Shown: positions 36,920 through 44,185 of the stretch, piece by piece | How the letters are laid out: every line of letters begins with the position of its first letter | How positions within the stretch are numbered: the first letter of the stretch is position 1 | Sequence record: MK327932.1 | Length of the DNA: 64,000 bases | Direction: 5' to 3' (one strand) | Source: Escherichia phage vB_EcoM_G2248 | Notes under the pieces: generated by a model | The model's database searches: none | Told to the model about the DNA's origin: nothing | Seen by the model: the letters and a program-made list of their open reading frames with translations, nothing else | Program-made: the position numbers and the translations under genes

Positions 36920-36927
36920 TATAAATA
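36920..36927 (+). promoter_or_regulatory. late promoter box TATAAATA upstream of gp24
   Basis: exact TATAAATA ~38 nt upstream of ATG 36965. Confidence 0.6.
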
Positions 36928-36964: not shown

Positions 36965-38206
36965 ATGACTCATATTTTTACTGAACTGTTGCGGGAATCT
37001 ACTTCCTCAGTAGCTAACCAGACAGCGCGACCGCAACTATTATCACTGACTCGCGCGGTAAACAACCTGATTTTCTCTGATCTGGTGGCAATCCAACCAA
37101 CCGATCAACCAGTATCTGCATTGTACGGCCTACGTTATCTTAATCATGATGGTCAGATGACGTTCCGGACCGCTGCAACCTATGGCGGTGCTGTTGGTGA
37201 TCGTTCTGATATTGAAGAATTTTCACAAGAAAAATCCTATGATGTAGGAGCAAAATTTAAATCAGGCGATGTTGTATACGAAGTTGTAACCGCTGGTACA
37301 GTAGGTGCAGATGCAGCCACGCCCGAAGCCGCAATTTTTAAAGGTGTGATGACAAATCAGATTCGCTTCTATAGCGACTGTGCACCTGTAGAATACTTTG
37401 AAGATAAAAACACAGAGATCTCATCAACGTCAATGCAGTTTGATAAGTGGCAGGTTAATGTAGGTTCTCGTAAATTGAAAACCTCGTTCACCACTGAATT
37501 AATGCAGGATCTTGAAGCAAGCCAAATCAACTCTGAAAACTCTGTAATTGATCTTCTGGCTACTGTCGCTTCCGAAGAGATCAACAAAGATATTATACAG
37601 AAGTTGATCACTGTATCAACTCGCTATAAAATTAAAGGGATCACCCCTGATGGCGTACTTTCTCTAGTTAGCGTTCAGGACGCACCAAAACAAGCTCGCG
37701 AACTTTACCGCTATGCTTGCGAAATGAGCAATCAAATGTTGCGTACTTCCTCCTTTGCTGGCACATACGTTTTGGCGTCTTCTCGCGTGGTTGGTCTCCT
37801 GCAATCTACCGGATGGATGGAAGAAACCGACAATGCTCTAAGCGAAGGCCGTCTACGCTGTGGTCTGGAAGTGTACGCAGATACGGTAACTCCGTTTGAT
37901 TATATGGTCGTTGGCTGTAAACACATGATCGGTGATATGGAGAGTGTAGGTTCTCTTTTCTACTCCCCATACACAGAAGCCGATGGCGCTGGCGCATATA
38001 AGAGCGTAATCGATCCTAACAGCTTCCAACACCATGTAGCTATTATGAATCGTTATTCACTCTCTGTCAACCCATACACAGCAAAAGTTGACCAAGAAGA
38101 ACACCAGGTCATCAAGGGTGACGAGTGGGCTAAACTTGCTGGACGTTCAGAAATGTCCTACATTTTAGGTATCGAACTGCCACCGCTTGAGATTGACAAC
38201 TCTTAA
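36965..38206 (+). CDS. 24: gp24 capsid vertex protein
   Basis: start at internal ATG 36965; N-terminus MTHIFTELLRESTSSVANQTARPQLLSLTRA resembles T4 gp24 and is gp23-paralogous. Confidence 0.85.
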   Translation: MTHIFTELLRESTSSVANQTARPQLLSLTRAVNNLIFSDLVAIQPTDQPVSALYGLRYLNHDGQMTFRTAATYGGAVGDRSDIEEFSQEKSYDVGAKFKSGDVVYEVVTAGTVGADAATPEAAIFKGVMTNQIRFYSDCAPVEYFEDKNTEISSTSMQFDKWQVNVGSRKLKTSFTTELMQDLEASQINSENSVIDLLATVASEEINKDIIQKLITVSTRYKIKGITPDGVLSLVSVQDAPKQARELYRYACEMSNQMLRTSSFAGTYVLASSRVVGLLQSTGWMEETDNALSEGRLRCGLEVYADTVTPFDYMVVGCKHMIGDMESVGSLFYSPYTEADGAGAYKSVIDPNSFQHHVAIMNRYSLSVNPYTAKVDQEEHQVIKGDEWAKLAGRSEMSYILGIELPPLEIDNS

Positions 38207-38794
38207 CTAAATATCTAACCAAGACAAGTCAGATCCGCCCAAGATTTTTTCGACGGCGGATCTATTTTCTTGATGATATAAGTTAAAACATGGTATCCCA
38301 TGTCTACGGGCAACATAAACAGCAATTCGAGTTCCGCCCGAAACAATACCATTAACTTCTTTCGCCCAAAATAACACACAATCTACAGGATCATCAAGTG
38401 TCTCACCTAAGACTTGAGCAACATTTCTAGAAAACAGATTTTGCATGTATAGCGGTATAGAACGAGGATTATCATAAACGTGTTCTAATTCATCCATCGC
38501 CAGATTCTTTTGCTCTAGAGTCTGCCACGCAATCACATCACGACCATTATGCTTATGATCGTAAAACTTCCAATTTGGAATGAAAATTTTTCTATAATCT
38601 GGGTCGTAATACTTCATGAAAGCATTGTCCATACCGTAAGCCCCTCCAGAATGCGCTACAACGCGATTTTCTGACAATACCCTCCCAATGGCACTAGCCA
38701 TTATCAAAATGTCGTTAGGCGCTTTTCTAGAGCCTATAAGAGCACATCTACGAAGTGGTTTTACTCCAAATAGATCTTGTAACTGGTCAAACAT
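38207..38794 (-). CDS. DprA/Smf-like Rossmann-fold protein (SLOG superfamily)
   Basis: ALIGSRKAPNDILIMASAIGRVL..VVAHSGGAYGMDNAF and later EVNGIVSGGTRIAVYVARRHGIPCF match DprA core signatures; start at ATG 38792-38794 behind GGAGGAA RBS. Confidence 0.55.
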   Translation of the reverse strand: MFDQLQDLFGVKPLRRCALIGSRKAPNDILIMASAIGRVLSENRVVAHSGGAYGMDNAFMKYYDPDYRKIFIPNWKFYDHKHNGRDVIAWQTLEQKNLAMDELEHVYDNPRSIPLYMQNLFSRNVAQVLGETLDDPVDCVLFWAKEVNGIVSGGTRIAVYVARRHGIPCFNLYHQENRSAVEKILGGSDLSWLDI

Positions 38795-38915
38795 AATATT
38801 TTCCTCCATAGAAAGCAGTATCATATTACAAGTTAATAACAAATACAAGTATCCGCGTAGCGGAAGCGAGCACAGCGAGCATTAAAACACTTCCAGTAAC
38901 TGATTAATAAATGTT

Positions 38916-38958
38916 CGAAACAAATTTTTATTATTCTATAAGATAAGTCTTCGTTTTG
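38916..38958. repeat. ~44-bp imperfect palindromic intergenic element, copy B
   Basis: cgaaacaaatttttattattctataagataagtcttcgttttg; near-identical to copy A (519-562). Confidence 0.6.
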
Positions 38959-39074
38959 TTCATAATTTAATCATACATGTAAAAACTACACAAAAAGGAT
39001 ATCGCTTCGCGAACTCCTACGGAGTATAACATTTGTGTTACAATATGTAGTGATTAATAATTAACCAAAGATAC

Positions 39075-39109
39075 ATTTTCTATGTTCTAAAGATCTTTCT
39101 TCGTTTTGG
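39075..39109. repeat. palindromic element copy C (right half conserved: ttctaaagatctttcttcgttttgg)
   Basis: matches right arm plus ~20 nt of flanking sequence of copies A and B. Confidence 0.5.
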
Positions 39110-39175
39110 TCACAATTTAATCAAACAGTATTAATATTGTCCACATGTAAACTAAATCATGATGATTTGTGGATA

Positions 39176-39205
39176 CAAAAAAGCCGCCCCGAAGGACGGC
39201 TAATG
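39176..39205 (-). terminator. rho-independent terminator (minus strand) after the 145-aa gene
   Basis: reverse complement reads agccgtccttcggggcggc followed by TTTTTT. Confidence 0.65.
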
Positions 39206-39209
39206 TTAA

Positions 39210-39647
39210 TTATTTGTTGATAACGATCTGATTTCGGCGAATGGTAACATTGCTCTTAGAGATGATCAGATCATCCGGCACTACGTTCGTTTTGTATGGC
39301 TGGAAGCGAACAAGCATCTGATTGCGTTTAGAACCTTCCTTAATCTTGATTTCCATCTGGATATTGTTGCCTACGTGAGCAATAGCAATTTGACCTTTGT
39401 TCTCATAGACCCACTTGCTGGTAACGTCGCCAGCGAAAGCCTTAATAACTTGCAATGCTTCGTCGTATGCAGTAGAGCTATGAACGTTCAGAAGACCAGC
39501 CGTCGCCAGACGTGAGCAAGTGATCGCTGGAGATTGCCAAACATCAACATTGATTTGCTCAATCAGAGCAACACCGCCATGATCAACTGCTTTGAATGCT
39601 TCAAACATTGCTTTTTTCATTGCTACGTGGTTTTTACGGAATTTCAT
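39210..39647 (-). CDS. hypothetical 145-aa protein
   Basis: complete ORF with own terminator; no recognisable motif. Confidence 0.5.
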   Translation of the reverse strand: MKFRKNHVAMKKAMFEAFKAVDHGGVALIEQINVDVWQSPAITCSRLATAGLLNVHSSTAYDEALQVIKAFAGDVTSKWVYENKGQIAIAHVGNNIQMEIKIKEGSKRNQMLVRFQPYKTNVVPDDLIISKSNVTIRRNQIVINK

Positions 39648-40363: not shown

Positions 40364-41593
40364 TTAAAGTGGCGGAGCTTCGCGTATACGAAGAACTCTT
40401 TCTAGTGTCTCTCGATCTAAGTGATGGAATTTGCTTGCATTGTAGCTATAACCATTTCTGGATTCCATACAAATACAATCGCCGTATTTTTCCTCTGCTG
40501 CCGCGATCGTCTCCAGGTCTTTGGCATATCGACTACGGGAATATACTTCTCTGTGTCTCCATTCTAAGTTTAACTCATTGAATTTAACAATCTCGTCAAA
40601 TACCCACCAGCCAATATAGATAAACGACGTTCTACGCCACGGAAGCGGATGGACATAACGGAACATAGTATGAAGAGACTCGACTATGTTCATCTGGCAT
40701 TTGGTACTGATTACAAATCCTACCTCAACACGAGTTCCGTCAATGGTTTGAAAGAGTTTAGCTATACACCAGAAAGTAGCATGATCGTCCTGTGTCGCTC
40801 TTTCTTTGTATAGTGTGCCGTTAGGTAAAATTGAAAATCCCTCTGATATCTCTCCTATGGTGTTTCCTAATAATACCTTATCTTGTCCTTCTCGTTGTAG
40901 ATACCAGTTGTATTGGATGGATAGCGGTGGCATATCGCTATTATCGCCTACAATGTCCTCTGACACAAAATACTGCAATATGATTGGATAACCTATTGCT
41001 ACGGTGTTATCTGCGTTCACATCGCGATCTACGCTCATTTTAGCGAGCATTACCTTAGAAGATGTTTTGTCGATTGAGTTTTCCGATTCACCCCAGACCG
41101 AGACAGTATACACCCCGTTATCGTCATCGCTAAATTCGTGTATTGTTAATGTGTCGCTTGTGTTGTCTAATACTCGACCGTCTTTCTCCCAGCGATAATG
41201 GAGAGTATATGTGTCTGACGGTGATTTTCCTGTGGAGTAACTAACCGTTGTTCGTAGGTCAACATCGGTTTTTGTCTGTACATAGAAATGAGTAGGTTCT
41301 GTTATTTTTACAACTAGTTCGGCCTCATCCATCCGCACCGCGTTACTGGTTGCTTCGTCTCCTGTGTCGGTATCGCGCACGGTTACTTTGTAAGACCCTG
41401 CATTTTCACTTGTTGCGTCAGAAATAGTTAACGTGTTAGTGTCGCCTTCTTGCGATTTATCGTCTTTTGTCCATGTATATGTTAGATTGCTTGGTGCAGG
41501 GTCATCCCCAGAATCCAAAGTCACCGTTAATGTGAACGTGTCACCAGCGAGAAAACATCTTTTATCCGATTTTAATTTAACGGTAAATGCCAT
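40364..41593 (-). CDS. hoc: Hoc-like capsid decoration protein, ~3 Ig-like domains
   Basis: Ig-type periodicity (YxWxKDG.., GxYxCxV); C-terminal YVHPLPWRRTSFIYIGWWVFDEI segment shared with neighbouring paralog. Confidence 0.7.
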   Translation of the reverse strand: MAFTVKLKSDKRCFLAGDTFTLTVTLDSGDDPAPSNLTYTWTKDDKSQEGDTNTLTISDATSENAGSYKVTVRDTDTGDEATSNAVRMDEAELVVKITEPTHFYVQTKTDVDLRTTVSYSTGKSPSDTYTLHYRWEKDGRVLDNTSDTLTIHEFSDDDNGVYTVSVWGESENSIDKTSSKVMLAKMSVDRDVNADNTVAIGYPIILQYFVSEDIVGDNSDMPPLSIQYNWYLQREGQDKVLLGNTIGEISEGFSILPNGTLYKERATQDDHATFWCIAKLFQTIDGTRVEVGFVISTKCQMNIVESLHTMFRYVHPLPWRRTSFIYIGWWVFDEIVKFNELNLEWRHREVYSRSRYAKDLETIAAAEEKYGDCICMESRNGYSYNASKFHHLDRETLERVLRIREAPPL

Positions 41594-41644: not shown

Positions 41645-44185
41645 TTAAAATAACTGTGTTCCGTCAACCAGATAACCGTTACGAGATTCAAGTACATGCG
41701 TATTGCTGTAATGATGCAGCGATGCCGCGATAGTCTCGATCTCATCTGGATATTTGGTATGCTCAAAATCTTCCAGCCAGTTTAATCCAGATTTAAGGCA
41801 TCGTTCGATCTCATCCATGACCCAATACCCTTGATATTGGAACGAGGTACGACGCCACGGGATGGGATGCACATAACGTTTAAGTGTCGCTTTAGTAAAC
41901 ACAATGCGAACTTTTTCTGTGTGTGCAACATGGCCTTCGTCGTCCTTGACGACCGCGTAATATGTTGCTTCATGGTTCTCTTTAGTCAACTCACCATGAG
42001 GGATAGTCAAAACTTTTTGAGTTGCCCCAGGAATTGTTTTGTCTATGCCTCCTTTGACTTTATGCCACTGCCAACTAACTACTTTATCATCATCGACGTG
42101 TTCAGCGTGCGCTTCCAGCTTAACGTCTTGCTCTTGACCTTCTTTTGCCACAACATCAACCGGATGTTTGATAATGTTGATGTTTTGATGTGGAGCCATA
42201 GTGATTTCTGCCGGATTAGTTTCTACAGTTGTTTCTGCGGCTGTAATAACGGCAGTATAACGACCTACGTCAGAAGGTTTAACATGCTCGATGATAAGAG
42301 TTTCCGAGTTTTCCCCTGGAATAATAACACCATCTTTTTTCCACTGATAAGTTGGTTTTATGCCAATCGTATTAGTGGCTTGAGCGTGTAAAATAACTCT
42401 CTGGTTGAGGTTGACGTGAGCATCTTGCGGATGTATTGTAATTCGAGTATCGTTTTCAACAATCGACGGATCGTCGGTAATGATAACCCTTGCCGGATTG
42501 GTCATTTGCGATACACGATGTTCACCAAAACCCGCTGATACACGGCAGGTGTATACACCAGATGACGTTATCTGAGCGTGATCTTCACCATAAGAATTTC
42601 GTTGTTCGACACCAGCCGGGAAAAGATCTTTACCGTCTTTAAACCAGCGATAACGAACAGGTAGCGCATCATTCGAGGTTGCCTCAACTGAGATGGTCCA
42701 TACTCCACCAGAACGAACACTAATAGCGTGTGGCTGTTTAGTGATGTTCATAGTGGATTTGGTGGCGTCTACAGAAACCTGAACTTCATTGGAATCTTTA
42801 ACGATGCGATGATTCGAGATACCCATAGAAACCACGCATTTATAACGACCCTCGTCGGCTTTAGTGATAGCAGAAAAATGTAATGAATCCGAAGTTTTAT
42901 TTGGGATCAACTCATTATCCTTATACCACTGATAATCTAATTTGAAATGTTCATAATTAGACGTTGCTCGACAAGTAAGAGTTTGAGATGAACTCACACG
43001 AACGTTATTGATCGGCTGTGGTTGTTGGGTGATCGTGATCACCGGAGATGACCCGACCAGAAGTGTTGCTACCTCTGATTCGGTGATCTGATTATTTCCA
43101 TATGTAATTCGAGCTTTGAATTTAGCCTCATTAACATCATTGGTCGCCGGAATGATTTTTAACTCTTTTTCCGTTTCTCCAACGATAGGAGTAAATTCAC
43201 CTTCTTCTTTTTTCTGGCGTAGCCACTGTATTTTAACATTGGTGTAATTTGTTACATAATCAACACTTAGTACCGCTGGCGTTAATGCCGGAACATTAGT
43301 GTTTAATGGCTGTCGGGAAATTCGGAAATATGAACGTCCAGACACAACAACATTACAATCTTTAGAATAAACTACAGTACCCCCTTGACGAACTTCGAGA
43401 CGCCAGATCCCAGCATCGGCTTGTGTTACATACGGGATGATCATTGCTGTACCGTCTTGATCGATGATCTTTTTCCCGTTATGAATCCATGTGTACTCAA
43501 TATCACGAGTTGCATCATCGGACCTTACCGTAACTTCTAAATCCAAACGAGCATCTTCTAATACGGTGACAGTATCAGAATAATGTTCTTCGATGTGAAT
43601 TACTGGCGGTTTATCGTTTTCTTCCACAACAACCGGACTAATACGGTAATATGCTCGTGCGTCCTGGATAACAAATACTTTACAAGTATAATTGCCGAAG
43701 TCTTCACGAGATACCCTATCAACGTGTACGTTTTTAGCTTGTACTTTGTTGGGGTCAATCATAACATGATCTTTATACCAGATTGTATCAAATTGATAAC
43801 CGTCTTCGACAATCGGAGTGGCAAAAACATCAAGTGCTTCGCCAATTCGTTTGTAGATGTAAGTCGGAGATTGGTCTTGTGGTGCGATAAATGGAATACG
43901 CTCAACCAAAATCGGATCAATATCCACATAATCCAGTGGATTCTCTTTCAATTTGACACGCGCGGTATATGTGCCAAATTGTTCTTGAGTCAATTCGGCA
44001 ATGTACAGAGATTGGTCTGGTTCTGCAACTTGATCCGCTGGCACACTCTGACCGTTTAGCTTCCATTCTACGATATAGTCTTTAAAATCTGATGTACTTA
44101 CTACCAATTTAAGAACAAGTTCATGTCCCACTGATGCGTGGACAGGACCAGTAGTTTGATGTAAAATATTGATTTTATCAGACAT
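41645..44185 (-). CDS. giant Hoc-like protein with ~8 tandem Ig-like domains
   Basis: repeated YxW(F/K)KDG.. and G.YTC.V motifs across 846 aa; C-terminal YVHPIPWRRTSFQYQGYWVMDEI matches the paralog. Confidence 0.7.
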   Translation of the reverse strand: MSDKINILHQTTGPVHASVGHELVLKLVVSTSDFKDYIVEWKLNGQSVPADQVAEPDQSLYIAELTQEQFGTYTARVKLKENPLDYVDIDPILVERIPFIAPQDQSPTYIYKRIGEALDVFATPIVEDGYQFDTIWYKDHVMIDPNKVQAKNVHVDRVSREDFGNYTCKVFVIQDARAYYRISPVVVEENDKPPVIHIEEHYSDTVTVLEDARLDLEVTVRSDDATRDIEYTWIHNGKKIIDQDGTAMIIPYVTQADAGIWRLEVRQGGTVVYSKDCNVVVSGRSYFRISRQPLNTNVPALTPAVLSVDYVTNYTNVKIQWLRQKKEEGEFTPIVGETEKELKIIPATNDVNEAKFKARITYGNNQITESEVATLLVGSSPVITITQQPQPINNVRVSSSQTLTCRATSNYEHFKLDYQWYKDNELIPNKTSDSLHFSAITKADEGRYKCVVSMGISNHRIVKDSNEVQVSVDATKSTMNITKQPHAISVRSGGVWTISVEATSNDALPVRYRWFKDGKDLFPAGVEQRNSYGEDHAQITSSGVYTCRVSAGFGEHRVSQMTNPARVIITDDPSIVENDTRITIHPQDAHVNLNQRVILHAQATNTIGIKPTYQWKKDGVIIPGENSETLIIEHVKPSDVGRYTAVITAAETTVETNPAEITMAPHQNINIIKHPVDVVAKEGQEQDVKLEAHAEHVDDDKVVSWQWHKVKGGIDKTIPGATQKVLTIPHGELTKENHEATYYAVVKDDEGHVAHTEKVRIVFTKATLKRYVHPIPWRRTSFQYQGYWVMDEIERCLKSGLNWLEDFEHTKYPDEIETIAASLHHYSNTHVLESRNGYLVDGTQLF

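What the first reader, a model, noticed from the sequence alone, without database searches (positions are those of the whole stretch)
38207..38848. DprA/Smf-like (SLOG superfamily) protein convergent with gp24
The ~195-aa product matches the DprA Rossmann-domain core (GSR...SGGAYGMD and VSGGTRIAVYVARRHG). It is not part of the canonical T4 gene 24-to-hoc interval. Its stop abuts the gp24 stop with no intergenic space, and a 9-bp inverted repeat (agatccgcc / ggcggatct, 38232-38262) lies inside its 3' coding end, possibly a bidirectional terminator. DprA-like and related SLOG domains act in ssDNA handling and also appear in defence-related nucleotide-processing systems, so its role here is open.
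Basis: partly seen in the sequence, partly recalled or inferred. Interest (0 to 1): 0.55.

Follow-up and report, generated by a model that had tools for sequence, protein, structure and literature searches.

The report
Phage stand-alone DprA-like SLOG protein
This is a real, early-expressed phage gene for a small nucleotide-binding protein that resembles the bacterial DNA-uptake factor DprA, but its relatives' fusions and neighbours suggest it handles NAD+/ADP-ribose-derived molecules in the phage-host arms race, and nobody has tested it.

Summary
A 195-aa ORF (38207-38794, minus strand) abuts the gene 24 stop. It carries the quoted motifs, and the 9-bp inverted repeat is real.

The window is a Krischvirus (RB49/Phi1-like). 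The gene is Phi1 ORF164, PHROG 768, already annotated "DprA-like DNA recombination-mediator protein".

The family is large: 4343 clusters and 1334 phage records. Of the 20 long relatives I scanned, 12 carry NADAR, Macro, DUF4326 or the NAD+-binding ligase Ia domain; one carries RecJ. In 22 of 80 viral loci the gene lies within 10 kb of NAD+-reconstitution (Adps/Namat), Macro, DUF4326 or NADAR genes. UvsX is nearby in 1 of 80 and UvsY in none.

My best reading (0.5) is an early counter-defence protein that binds or processes an NAD+/ADP-ribose-derived ligand, not a recombinase loader. No experiment on the family was found.

The inverted repeat is most likely the gene 24 terminator embedded antisense in this ORF. 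It shows one compensatory change in relatives.

Verdict: a catalogued family of unknown mechanism, of moderate interest.

The parts
38207..38794 (-). CDS, 195 aa: stand-alone DprA-like SLOG domain protein (Phi1 ORF164 / GEC-3S BN201_0167 orthologue; PHROG 768)
38803..38807 (-). Shine-Dalgarno GGAGG, 8 nt upstream of the ATG at 38794
   Evidence: Read directly from the sequence. Conserved as (G)GAGG in relatives.
38231..38272 (+). Hairpin (arms 38231-38239 / 38255-38263) plus the tract ATTTTCTTG. Probable intrinsic terminator of the late gene 24 transcript, embedded antisense in the 3' coding end of the SLOG ORF
   Evidence: Conserved in Phi1, GEC-3S and the 57-58% relatives L096 and L097, with one compensatory U-A to A-U swap and a U-tract in the gene 24 sense in all of them. 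L098 and the Jiaodavirus phage KLB2 have an intergenic GC hairpin at the same junction instead.
36965..38206 (+). Gene 24 (head vertex protein), convergent neighbour. A late promoter motif TATAAATA sits at 36920-36927
38933..38962 (-). Proximal sigma-70-type (early-like) promoter candidate, TGAACA-N18-TAGAAT
   Evidence: Conserved as TGATCA-N17/18-TATAAT in L096, L097 and L098. No TATAAATA occurs on the minus strand anywhere in the window.
39083..39127 (-). Distal copy of the promoter-like unit, 150 nt upstream of the proximal one (direct repeat 38940-38977 / 39090-39127, 84% identical)
38840..38864 (-). Conserved GC hairpin TCCGC-TAC-GCGGA with a U-rich tail in the 5' leader, about 60 nt upstream of the ATG. 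Terminator-like or attenuator element, or the 3' end of a short early RNA
   Evidence: The stem covaries in relatives: CCCGC/GCGGG, TTGCAGC/GCTGCAA, ACCGC/GCGGT. No convincing Rfam match (only a sub-threshold chance hit).
39182..39201 (-). Intrinsic terminator of the upstream gene (ORF165 homologue). It isolates the SLOG gene as its own transcription unit
   Evidence: Annotated as a terminator in GEC-3S.

Best explanation
The gene encodes a one-domain SLOG (Smf/DprA-LOG) Rossmannoid protein. It is expressed from its own early, sigma-70-type promoters.

The conserved loops form one phosphate- and nucleotide-binding pocket: GSR after strand 1, SGGAxGxD after strand 2, the RNxxQ helix and GGT after strand 4. 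I infer that the ligand is an NAD+/ADP-ribose-derived molecule rather than ssDNA for recombinase loading.

The candidate ligands are an immune signal such as a cADPR isomer or His-ADPR, or a dead-end ADPR derivative made by NAD+-degrading defences. The protein would either sequester that molecule or convert it towards plain ADPR. That would blunt NAD+-centred host defence early in infection. In phages that carry the NARP1 (Adps/Namat) pathway next to this gene, the product would feed NAD+ rebuilding.

Shown here: the fold, the conserved pocket motifs, the fusion partners, the gene neighbourhoods and the early-type expression signals. Inferred: the identity of the ligand, whether the protein is a binder or an enzyme, and the counter-defence phenotype.

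For: (2) Conservation: the family-wide invariant residues are G21, R23, G50, D56, R123, G153, G154 and T155. Nearly invariant are S49, A52, G54, N124, Q127 and N171.

(3) Fusions among 20 long relatives scanned. 12 carry an NAD+/ADPr-linked partner:
- NADAR: P0046, P0134, P0152, P0017, P0018.
- DUF4326: P0154, P0138, P0209.
- Macro: P0237.
- NAD+-binding ligase domain Ia: P0225, P0228, P0231.
Only one carries a nucleic-acid enzyme (RecJ, P0094). A further SLOG-DUF4326 fusion ORF occurs in locus L079.

(4) Neighbourhood of 80 IMG/VR loci, within 10 kb:
- Namat/NAPRTase family in 15, Adps/Prs in 10, Macro in 10, DUF4326 in 6, NADAR in 1. Together 22 of 80 loci have at least one.
- In seven loci the order is Adps ... 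Namat - Macro - SLOG on one strand, and in two more Adps ... Namat - SLOG.
- For comparison, NARP1 is in about 4% of phages (PMC13464706; bioRxiv 10.64898/2026.01.28.702374).
- Similar contexts occur in Klebsiella phage ER45 and in locus L009.

(5) Precedent: two other NARP1-adjacent accessory genes, Macro Adpp and RyDEP, convert NAD+-derived defence products to ADPR (bioRxiv 10.64898/2026.01.28.702374; PMC13232231).

(6) Comparative genomics by Iyer et al. 2022 (PMC9503650) independently predicted that viral SLOGs sense or process ADPr derivatives.

(7) Expression: own early-type promoters, no late promoter, and a location among early genes in N4-like and other phages.

(8) A recombinase loader would be redundant. 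Phi1 has uvsX, uvsY, 32, 59, 46 and 47. UvsX is near the family in 1 of 80 loci and UvsY in none.
Against: - The closest solved structures and the only sequence-profile hits are DprA proteins, which are ssDNA binders.
- The Arg after strand 1 and the RN motif correspond to two of the three ssDNA-contact arginines of H. pylori DprA (R52, R143; PMC12961424). This correspondence rests on my motif alignment to E. coli Smf.
- This Krischvirus has no Namat, Adps or NadV in the 152 kb of Phi1 I checked. Any NARP1-feeding role therefore cannot apply here.
- A 72-phage lysate screen found 2'cADPR cleavage only in one mycobacteriophage (PMC13232231). I could not establish whether any tested phage carried this family.
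- Neighbourhood enrichment was judged against a literature background rate, not a matched random-gene control. The 80 loci are the best matches to one sub-alignment. Namat neighbours fall in 8 lineages at 55% identity, and Adps and Macro in 5 each.
- No catalytic residue can be named.
Confidence: 0.5

Rival explanations
1. It is a minimal DprA. The Rossmann domain binds ssDNA and helps load a recombinase (UvsX or host RecA), or protects ssDNA during replication and recombination. This is what the public annotation 'DNA recombination-mediator protein' implies.
For: - DprA is the best structural and sequence relative.
- The motif order and spacing GSR / SGxAxGxD / RN / G..A..P match E. coli Smf.
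- ShosA, another DprA-like domain, binds ssDNA and RecA (PMC12961424).
- There are sporadic links to DNA enzymes: a RecJ fusion P0094; an SF1 helicase overlapping by 4 nt in 9 loci from 2-4 lineages; PIF1 nearby in L008.
- Iyer et al. 2021 suggested this role for the jumbo-phage copies (PMC7824862).
Against: - The match is below the DprA profile thresholds and aligns over the N-terminal half only.
- There is no SAM or winged-helix domain.
- The dimer and RecA interfaces are not demonstrable.
- The phage already has the UvsY mediator.
- UvsX is a neighbour in 1 of 80 loci and UvsY in none.
- NAD+/ADPr-linked fusions outnumber nucleic-acid fusions 12 to 1.
Confidence: 0.2
2. It is a nucleic-acid-targeting module for ADP-ribosylated ssDNA or RNA. 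It would bind ssDNA/RNA in the DprA manner and recruit or assist de-ADP-ribosylating enzymes. These are fused NADAR or Macro domains in relatives, and gp30.3 (NADAR) and Tk.4 (Macro) acting in trans in this phage. The effect would be to reverse DarT-type or RNA ADP-ribosylation.
For: - It reconciles the DprA-like pocket with the NADAR, Macro and DUF4326 fusions.
- Phi1 encodes a NADAR protein (gp30.3) and a Macro protein (tk.4) elsewhere.
- The gene occupies the rnlB (RNA ligase 2) slot of T4. In Jiaodavirus it is translationally coupled to rnlB (the rnlB stop overlaps its start). RNA ligase genes lie nearby in ER45, L009 and L012.
- From my own knowledge, DarT toxins modify ssDNA and are reversed by Macro (DarG) or NADAR enzymes.
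Against: - It does not explain the Nlig-Ia fusions (a binder of the NMN moiety of NAD+) or the NARP1 adjacency.
- There is no direct evidence of nucleic-acid binding.
- The stand-alone form has no hydrolase.
Confidence: 0.15
3. It is a LOG-like N-glycosidase acting on a mononucleotide (for example NMN, AMP or a modified dNMP) and releasing a free base plus ribose-5-phosphate.
For: - The HxRN...GGT...N pattern resembles LOG's hxRK...PGGxGT...N pattern. The LOG motifs are recalled from my own knowledge.
- Nucleotide-metabolism genes (NT5C, dCMP deaminase, HD YfbR, dUTPase) occur in some neighbourhoods.
Against: - The position matching the catalytic Glu of PGGxGTxxE is a nearly invariant Ala (A158, 130 of 139).
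- No Pfam LOG/Lysine_decarbox hit at E <= 10.
- DprA scores higher than LOG in every comparison.
Confidence: 0.1

Closest known systems
DprA/Smf (Pfam PF02481, TIGR00732), the bacterial RecA loader for transforming ssDNA
   Different: - Only about 190 aa, with no SAM-like N-domain and no C-terminal winged helix.
- Profile scores are below threshold, with similarity confined to the N-terminal half.
- The third motif is GGT instead of SGS/T.
- It is phage-borne, early-expressed and unlinked to competence or recombination genes.
- Its relatives are fused to NAD+/ADPr domains.
ShosA / PsyrA, the DprA-like antitoxins of the ShosTA/PsyrTA defence systems
   Different: There is no adjacent PRTase toxin, no SAM domain, and the host is a lytic phage. 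The hits cover about 45 residues only.
ThsA SLOG domain, the 3'cADPR sensor of type I Thoeris
   Different: Only 9% identity, and it ranks lower than DprA. No PADLOC ThsA hit. Conservation of the ligand-contact residues could not be tested.
LOG / PpnN phosphoribohydrolases
   Different: The catalytic Glu of PGGxGTxxE is replaced by a nearly invariant Ala. No profile hit.
NARP1-associated accessory genes: Macro Adpp (ADPR-1''P phosphatase) and RyDEP (2'/3'cADPR glycosidase)
   Same: The same genomic habit in a subset of phages. The gene sits just downstream of Adps-Namat(-Macro) on the same strand. It is a small, early, stand-alone protein.
   Different: An unrelated fold. No activity has been shown. 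The Krischvirus copy is not next to any NARP gene.
Viral YspA/YAcAr (DUF2493) SLOG proteins
   Same: Another stand-alone viral SLOG family. Both families co-occur in the polyvalent proteins P0017 and P0018.
   Different: Clearly a separate family. In BFVD the protein's own family scores E 1e-13 to 1e-7, while YspA-type proteins score about 1e-3. No Pfam YAcAr hit for this protein.

Membership tests
SLOG superfamily (Smf/DprA-LOG Rossmannoid) | Three-layer alpha/beta Rossmannoid fold that matches solved SLOG members | tested here: met
SLOG superfamily (Smf/DprA-LOG Rossmannoid) | Conserved Gly-rich or polar loops after strand 1 and strand 2 that contact the nucleotide phosphate | tested here: met
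   G21, R23, G50 and D56 are invariant, and S49, A52 and G54 are at least 90% conserved, in 102-139 family members.
DprA/Smf (PF02481 / TIGR00732) | Match to the family profile at or above the curated threshold over the whole domain | tested here: not met
   PF02481 scores 22.1 bits against a cutoff of 29.6, over residues 15-60 only. TIGR00732 scores 14.2 against 191. 74 of 102 relatives hit PF02481 at E < 0.01. hhalign against E. coli Smf gives 26% probability over residues 17-78.
DprA/Smf (PF02481 / TIGR00732) | The ssDNA-contact arginines (H. pylori R52, R143, R170) are conserved | tested here: inconclusive
   R23 aligns with R52 in the HMM alignment. R123 of the RN motif corresponds to the Smf RNR motif only by my manual motif alignment. 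The R170 position is variable (Y/N/R), while the neighbouring R156 is present in 65 of 139 members.
DprA/Smf (PF02481 / TIGR00732) | Multi-domain architecture: N-terminal SAM-like domain and/or C-terminal winged-helix domain flanking the Rossmann fold | tested here: not met
   195 aa forming a single domain in the model. Most relatives are 160-200 aa.
DprA/Smf (PF02481 / TIGR00732) | ssDNA binding, dimerisation and RecA interaction | not testable with these tools
   Needs EMSA, SEC-MALS and pull-down experiments.
DprA/Smf (PF02481 / TIGR00732) | Genomic association with recombination or competence genes | tested here: not met
   UvsX is within 10 kb in 1 of 80 loci and UvsY in none. In this phage the gene lies between gene 24 and the ORF165/24.3/hoc genes.
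LOG phosphoribohydrolase | PGGxGTxxE motif with a catalytic Glu | tested here: not met
   The corresponding segment is (S/K)GGTxxA with a nearly invariant Ala158 (130 of 139). No Pfam LOG hit at E <= 10. The LOG motif itself is recalled from my own knowledge.
ThsA-type SLOG cADPR sensor | Conservation of the 3'cADPR-contact residues and a fusion to, or partnership with, an effector | not tested
ShosA/PsyrA antitoxin | Adjacent PRTase toxin gene and a SAM plus DprA two-domain architecture | tested here: not met
   The neighbours are gene 24 and the ORF165 homologue. The PADLOC hits cover only residues 15-61.
YspA/YAcAr (PF10686, DUF2493) viral SLOG | Match to the family profile or closest structural neighbours | tested here: not met
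   No Pfam hit. BFVD YspA-type proteins score E about 1e-3, against 1e-13 for the DprA-like phage family.
NARP1-associated accessory gene | Located in or next to an Adps-Namat operon | tested here: not met
   Met in about 10-15 of 80 relatives' loci. Not met here: no Namat, Adps or NadV homologue in the window or in 152 kb of Phi1.

The most novel reading that the evidence does not exclude
The DprA-like phage SLOG family would be an uncharacterised class of anti-defence protein. It would act as a viral decoy or processing enzyme for an NAD+-derived immune molecule: a cADPR isomer, His-ADPR, or another ADPR adduct that NARP1/NARP1-AP cannot use. It would be deployed alone in Krischvirus and as a third type of NARP1 accessory, after Macro Adpp and RyDEP, in other phages. 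The widespread 'recombination mediator' annotation would then be wrong.
Probability: 0.3. Interest if true: 0.7.

Novelty: new member of a known kind. Interest (0 to 1): 0.4.

Why it matters
The family is present in about 2.6% of deposited phage genomes (1334 of 50,697) and in thousands of metagenomic clusters. It is currently named as a recombination mediator on the strength of a sub-threshold DprA match.

If it instead binds or converts an NAD+/ADP-ribose-derived molecule, it would add a widespread player to the NAD+-centred phage-bacterium arms race. It would also correct a propagated annotation.

A small, soluble, one-domain protein with clear candidate ligands makes this directly testable.

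Tried and rejected
- Word-indexed homologue search with the single protein gave only 6 hits. I replaced it with the exhaustive profile search and an alignment query.
- The search for related loci with the 102-sequence alignment failed because no stretch was conserved enough. A 12-sequence sub-alignment worked.
- hhalign against E. coli Smf and hmmsearch with filters off aligned only the N-terminal half. The C-terminal motif correspondence therefore rests on manual comparison.
- pI and net charge of the family (median pI 8.6; this protein 6.6) do not separate a DNA binder from a nucleotide binder, because the Smf Rossmann domain is 6.8.
- Pfam found nothing for the immediate neighbours: the ORF165 homologue, the 65-aa ORF, and the ER45 and phage 31 downstream genes.
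- Rfam gave only a sub-threshold chance hit (TarB, 21 bits against an 80-bit threshold, E 0.15) in the upstream leader region.
- Literature searches for an experimentally characterised phage DprA-like or SLOG protein found none. The NARP1, NARP3, RyDEP and N4-hotspot papers do not mention it.
- The P0226 look-up was not on record.
- Rejected: a virion or late gene, despite the position among head genes. The gene is on the opposite strand, has no late promoter, and has its own early-type promoters.
- Rejected: a bidirectional terminator, because the hairpin ends 21 nt before the stop codon in the ORF's own sense.

Full report
**What is in the sequence**

The window is a Krischvirus, that is an RB49/Phi1/GEC-3S-like relative of T4. 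The 1.9 kb around the finding is 94.7-95.6% identical to 58 deposited genomes.

On the minus strand an ORF runs 38207-38848. The likely start is the ATG at 38794, 8 nt after GGAGG. That gives 195 aa, the same length as Phi1 ORF164 and GEC-3S BN201_0167.

- The quoted motifs are present: GSR (21-23), SGGAYGMD (49-56) and VSGGTRIAVYVARRHG (151-166).
- Gene 24 (36965-38206, plus strand) ends one base before the stop codon of this ORF.
- The 9-bp inverted repeat lies at 38231-38239 / 38255-38263. The region folds far better than shuffles (z = -5.8).
- T4 itself has rnlB, 24.2 and 24.3 in this slot.

**What the protein is**

- PHROGs places it in phrog_768, 'DprA-like DNA recombination-mediator protein' (E 8e-60). 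RefSeq uses that name for the orthologues.
- Against curated DprA models it fails. Pfam PF02481 scores 22.1 bits against a cutoff of 29.6, over residues 15-60 only. TIGR00732 scores 14 against 191.
- PADLOC gives weak hits on the same segment to the DprA-like antitoxins PsyrA and ShosA.
- An AlphaFold2 model (pLDDT 86) is a single Rossmannoid domain.

So it is a SLOG-superfamily domain whose nearest characterised branch is DprA.

**The family**

- An exhaustive profile search finds 4343 50%-identity clusters, 2758 of them at E <= 1e-10. Most are stand-alone proteins of 160-200 aa.
- tblastn finds the gene in 1334 of 50,697 phage records across Klebsiella, Pseudomonas, Escherichia, Aeromonas, Vibrio, Acinetobacter and other phages.
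- Across 102-139 members at about 28% mean identity, G21, R23, G50, D56, R123, G153, G154 and T155 are invariant. P26, S49, A52, G54, P73, N124, Q127, G130, A158, A162 and N171 are nearly so.
- Lined up by hand with E. coli Smf, the order and spacing GSR / SG.A.G.D / RN / G..A....P are DprA-like.
- The residue at the position of the LOG catalytic Glu is a nearly invariant Ala (A158, 130 of 139). A LOG-type hydrolase mechanism is therefore unlikely.
- In the viral structure library the family is cleanly separate from the YspA/DUF2493 viral SLOGs (E 1e-13 to 1e-7 against about 1e-3).

**Evidence bearing on function**

Fusions. I scanned 20 long relatives.

| Partner domain | Relatives |
|---|---|
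| NADAR | P0046, P0134, P0152, P0017, P0018 |
| DUF4326 | P0154, P0138, P0209 |
| Macro | P0237 |
| NAD+-binding domain Ia of NAD+-dependent ligases | P0225, P0228, P0231 |
| RecJ | P0094 |
| No recognisable extra domain | seven proteins |

P0017 and P0018 are polyvalent proteins that also carry YAcAr and LDcluster4 SLOG domains. A further SLOG-DUF4326 fusion ORF occurs in locus L079.

Neighbourhoods. I fetched 80 IMG/VR loci with up to 10 kb of flank and clustered their ORFs. No neighbour is universal.

| Neighbour within 10 kb | Loci (of 80) |
|---|---|
| PhoH | 16 |
| NAPRTase-family Namat/NadV | 15 |
| ATP-dependent DNA ligase | 14 |
| Metallophosphoesterase | 13 |
| Prs-like Adps | 10 |
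| Macro | 10 |

- In seven loci the order is Adps ... Namat - Macro - SLOG on one strand, with the Macro gene 0.4-3.8 kb away. Two more have Adps ... Namat - SLOG. At 55% SLOG identity the Adps and Macro neighbours each fall in 5 lineages.
- Adding DUF4326 (6 loci) and NADAR (1 locus), 22 of 80 loci carry an NAD+/ADPr-linked gene within 10 kb.
- NARP1 occurs in only about 4% of phages (PMC13464706; bioRxiv 10.64898/2026.01.28.702374).
- Similar contexts occur in Klebsiella phage ER45 (RNA ligase - HNH - SLOG ... NadV) and in locus L009 (RNA ligase ... Prs ... NAPRTase ... SLOG).
- UvsX is nearby in 1 of 80 loci and UvsY in none.

The phage's own gene content. Phi1 has the full T4 recombination set, including the mediator UvsY. 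It also has a NADAR protein (gp30.3), a Macro protein (tk.4), three ADP-ribosyltransferases, RnlA and PseT. In the 152 kb I checked it has no RnlB, Namat, Adps or NadV.

**Expression signals**

- The gene is its own unit. A strong terminator follows the upstream gene (39182-39201; annotated in GEC-3S).
- Two promoter-like units lie 150 nt apart. The proximal one is TGAACA-N18-TAGAAT. It is conserved as TGATCA-N17/18-TATAAT in relatives that share 49-58% protein identity.
- No late motif TATAAATA occurs on the minus strand of the window, whereas gene 24 has one at 36920. I conclude that expression is early-type.
- Between promoter and ATG lies a short GC hairpin with a U-rich tail (38840-38864). 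Its stem covaries in relatives. It looks like an attenuator or the end of a short leader RNA. It has no convincing Rfam match.

**The inverted repeat**

- In the gene 24 sense the hairpin is followed by AUUUUCUU.
- In the 57-58% relatives L096 and L097 the stem is kept through a U-A to A-U double change. One arm changes TCC to ACC (Ser to Thr) and the other makes a synonymous GGA to GGT change. A U-tract again follows.
- All 27 pair cells are standard pairs. With only three distinct sequences the statistics are weak.
- In L098 and in the Jiaodavirus phage KLB2 an ordinary intergenic GC hairpin sits at the same junction.
- In the sense of the SLOG ORF the hairpin ends 21 nt before the stop codon, so termination there would give non-stop mRNA.

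I read it as the gene 24 late-transcript terminator embedded antisense in this ORF's 3' end, not as a bidirectional terminator.

**Literature**

- Iyer et al. 2021 (PMC7824862) listed the jumbo-phage copies as DprA/Smf and a possible extra ssDNA-binding protein.
- Iyer et al. 2022 (PMC9503650) surveyed viral SLOG domains. They noted fusions to Macro, NADAR and DUF4326 and predicted sensing or processing of ADPr derivatives, with no experiments.
- Two NARP1-adjacent accessory genes have since been shown to convert defence-made NAD+ products to ADPR. These are Macro Adpp for ADPR-1''P (bioRxiv 10.64898/2026.01.28.702374) and RyDEP for 2'/3'cADPR (PMC13232231).
- I found no experimental work on this family.

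**Interpretation**

- Best explanation (0.5): an early counter-defence SLOG protein that binds or processes an NAD+/ADP-ribose-derived ligand.
- Rival 1 (0.2): a minimal DprA acting on ssDNA.
- Rival 2 (0.15): a module that targets ADP-ribosylated nucleic acid and works with NADAR or Macro enzymes. The replacement of, or coupling to, rnlB hints at this.
- Rival 3 (0.1): a LOG-like mononucleotide glycosidase.

The main weaknesses are these:
- The closest solved relatives are all ssDNA binders.
- There is no matched control for the neighbourhood enrichment.
- This particular phage lacks NARP genes.
- No catalytic residue can be named.

**Verdict**

The gene is already catalogued and conserved in every Krischvirus. 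Its public functional name is probably misleading and its mechanism is untested. It is of moderate interest.

Noticed in passing
window 38231-38272 (+), inside the 3' end of the minus-strand ORF: The gene 24 terminator hairpin is embedded antisense in a coding region. It is maintained in 57-58% relatives by a Ser-to-Thr change on one arm, paired with a synonymous Gly-codon change on the other.
   Followed up: yes
window 38840-38864 (-) and 38933-39127 (-): Two tandem early-type promoter units lie 150 nt apart. They are followed by an approximately 85-nt leader that ends in a covarying GC hairpin with a U-rich tail, about 60 nt before the ATG. This could be an attenuator or a short early RNA. 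It has no convincing Rfam match.
   Followed up: partly
window 38207-38794 compared with T4 (L099 1637-2641) and Klebsiella phage KLB2 (L004 2997-4552): The SLOG gene occupies exactly the slot of T4 rnlB (RNA ligase 2). Jiaodavirus has both genes, with the rnlB stop overlapping the SLOG start. Krischvirus has only the SLOG gene and no rnlB.
   Followed up: partly
window 40364-41593 (-) and 41645-44185 (-): Two tandem Hoc-like Ig-repeat genes (409 aa and 846 aa) share a C-terminal RYVHP.PWRRTSF...ESRNGY capsid-binding-like tail. Phi1 is annotated with a single hoc gene here, while the relatives L096 and L098 also carry a long/short pair.
   Followed up: no
P0017 and P0018 (1475 and 1488 aa, metagenomic): Giant polyvalent proteins that string together this DprA-like SLOG domain, a YAcAr SLOG domain, an LDcluster4 SLOG domain and a C-terminal NADAR domain.
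   Followed up: no
L007 7771-8067: An Acb2/Tad1-hairpin family gene (a known sponge for cyclic nucleotide or cADPR signals) lies 1.2 kb downstream of a SLOG homologue in a block of small early-type ORFs.
   Followed up: no
L006 3983-5982 (Aeromonas phage 31) and L093 27724-29193 (Phi1 ORF044): In Aeromonas phage 31 the SLOG gene overlaps the start of a 479-aa protein of unknown function next to gene 55. Phi1 has a similarly sized unknown ORF (489 aa) next to its gene 55. Pfam finds nothing in the phage 31 protein.
   Followed up: no
window 39210-39647 (-): The 145-aa ORF165 homologue immediately upstream is conserved in synteny in all Krischvirus-like relatives (L096, L098). It has no Pfam match.
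   Followed up: partly
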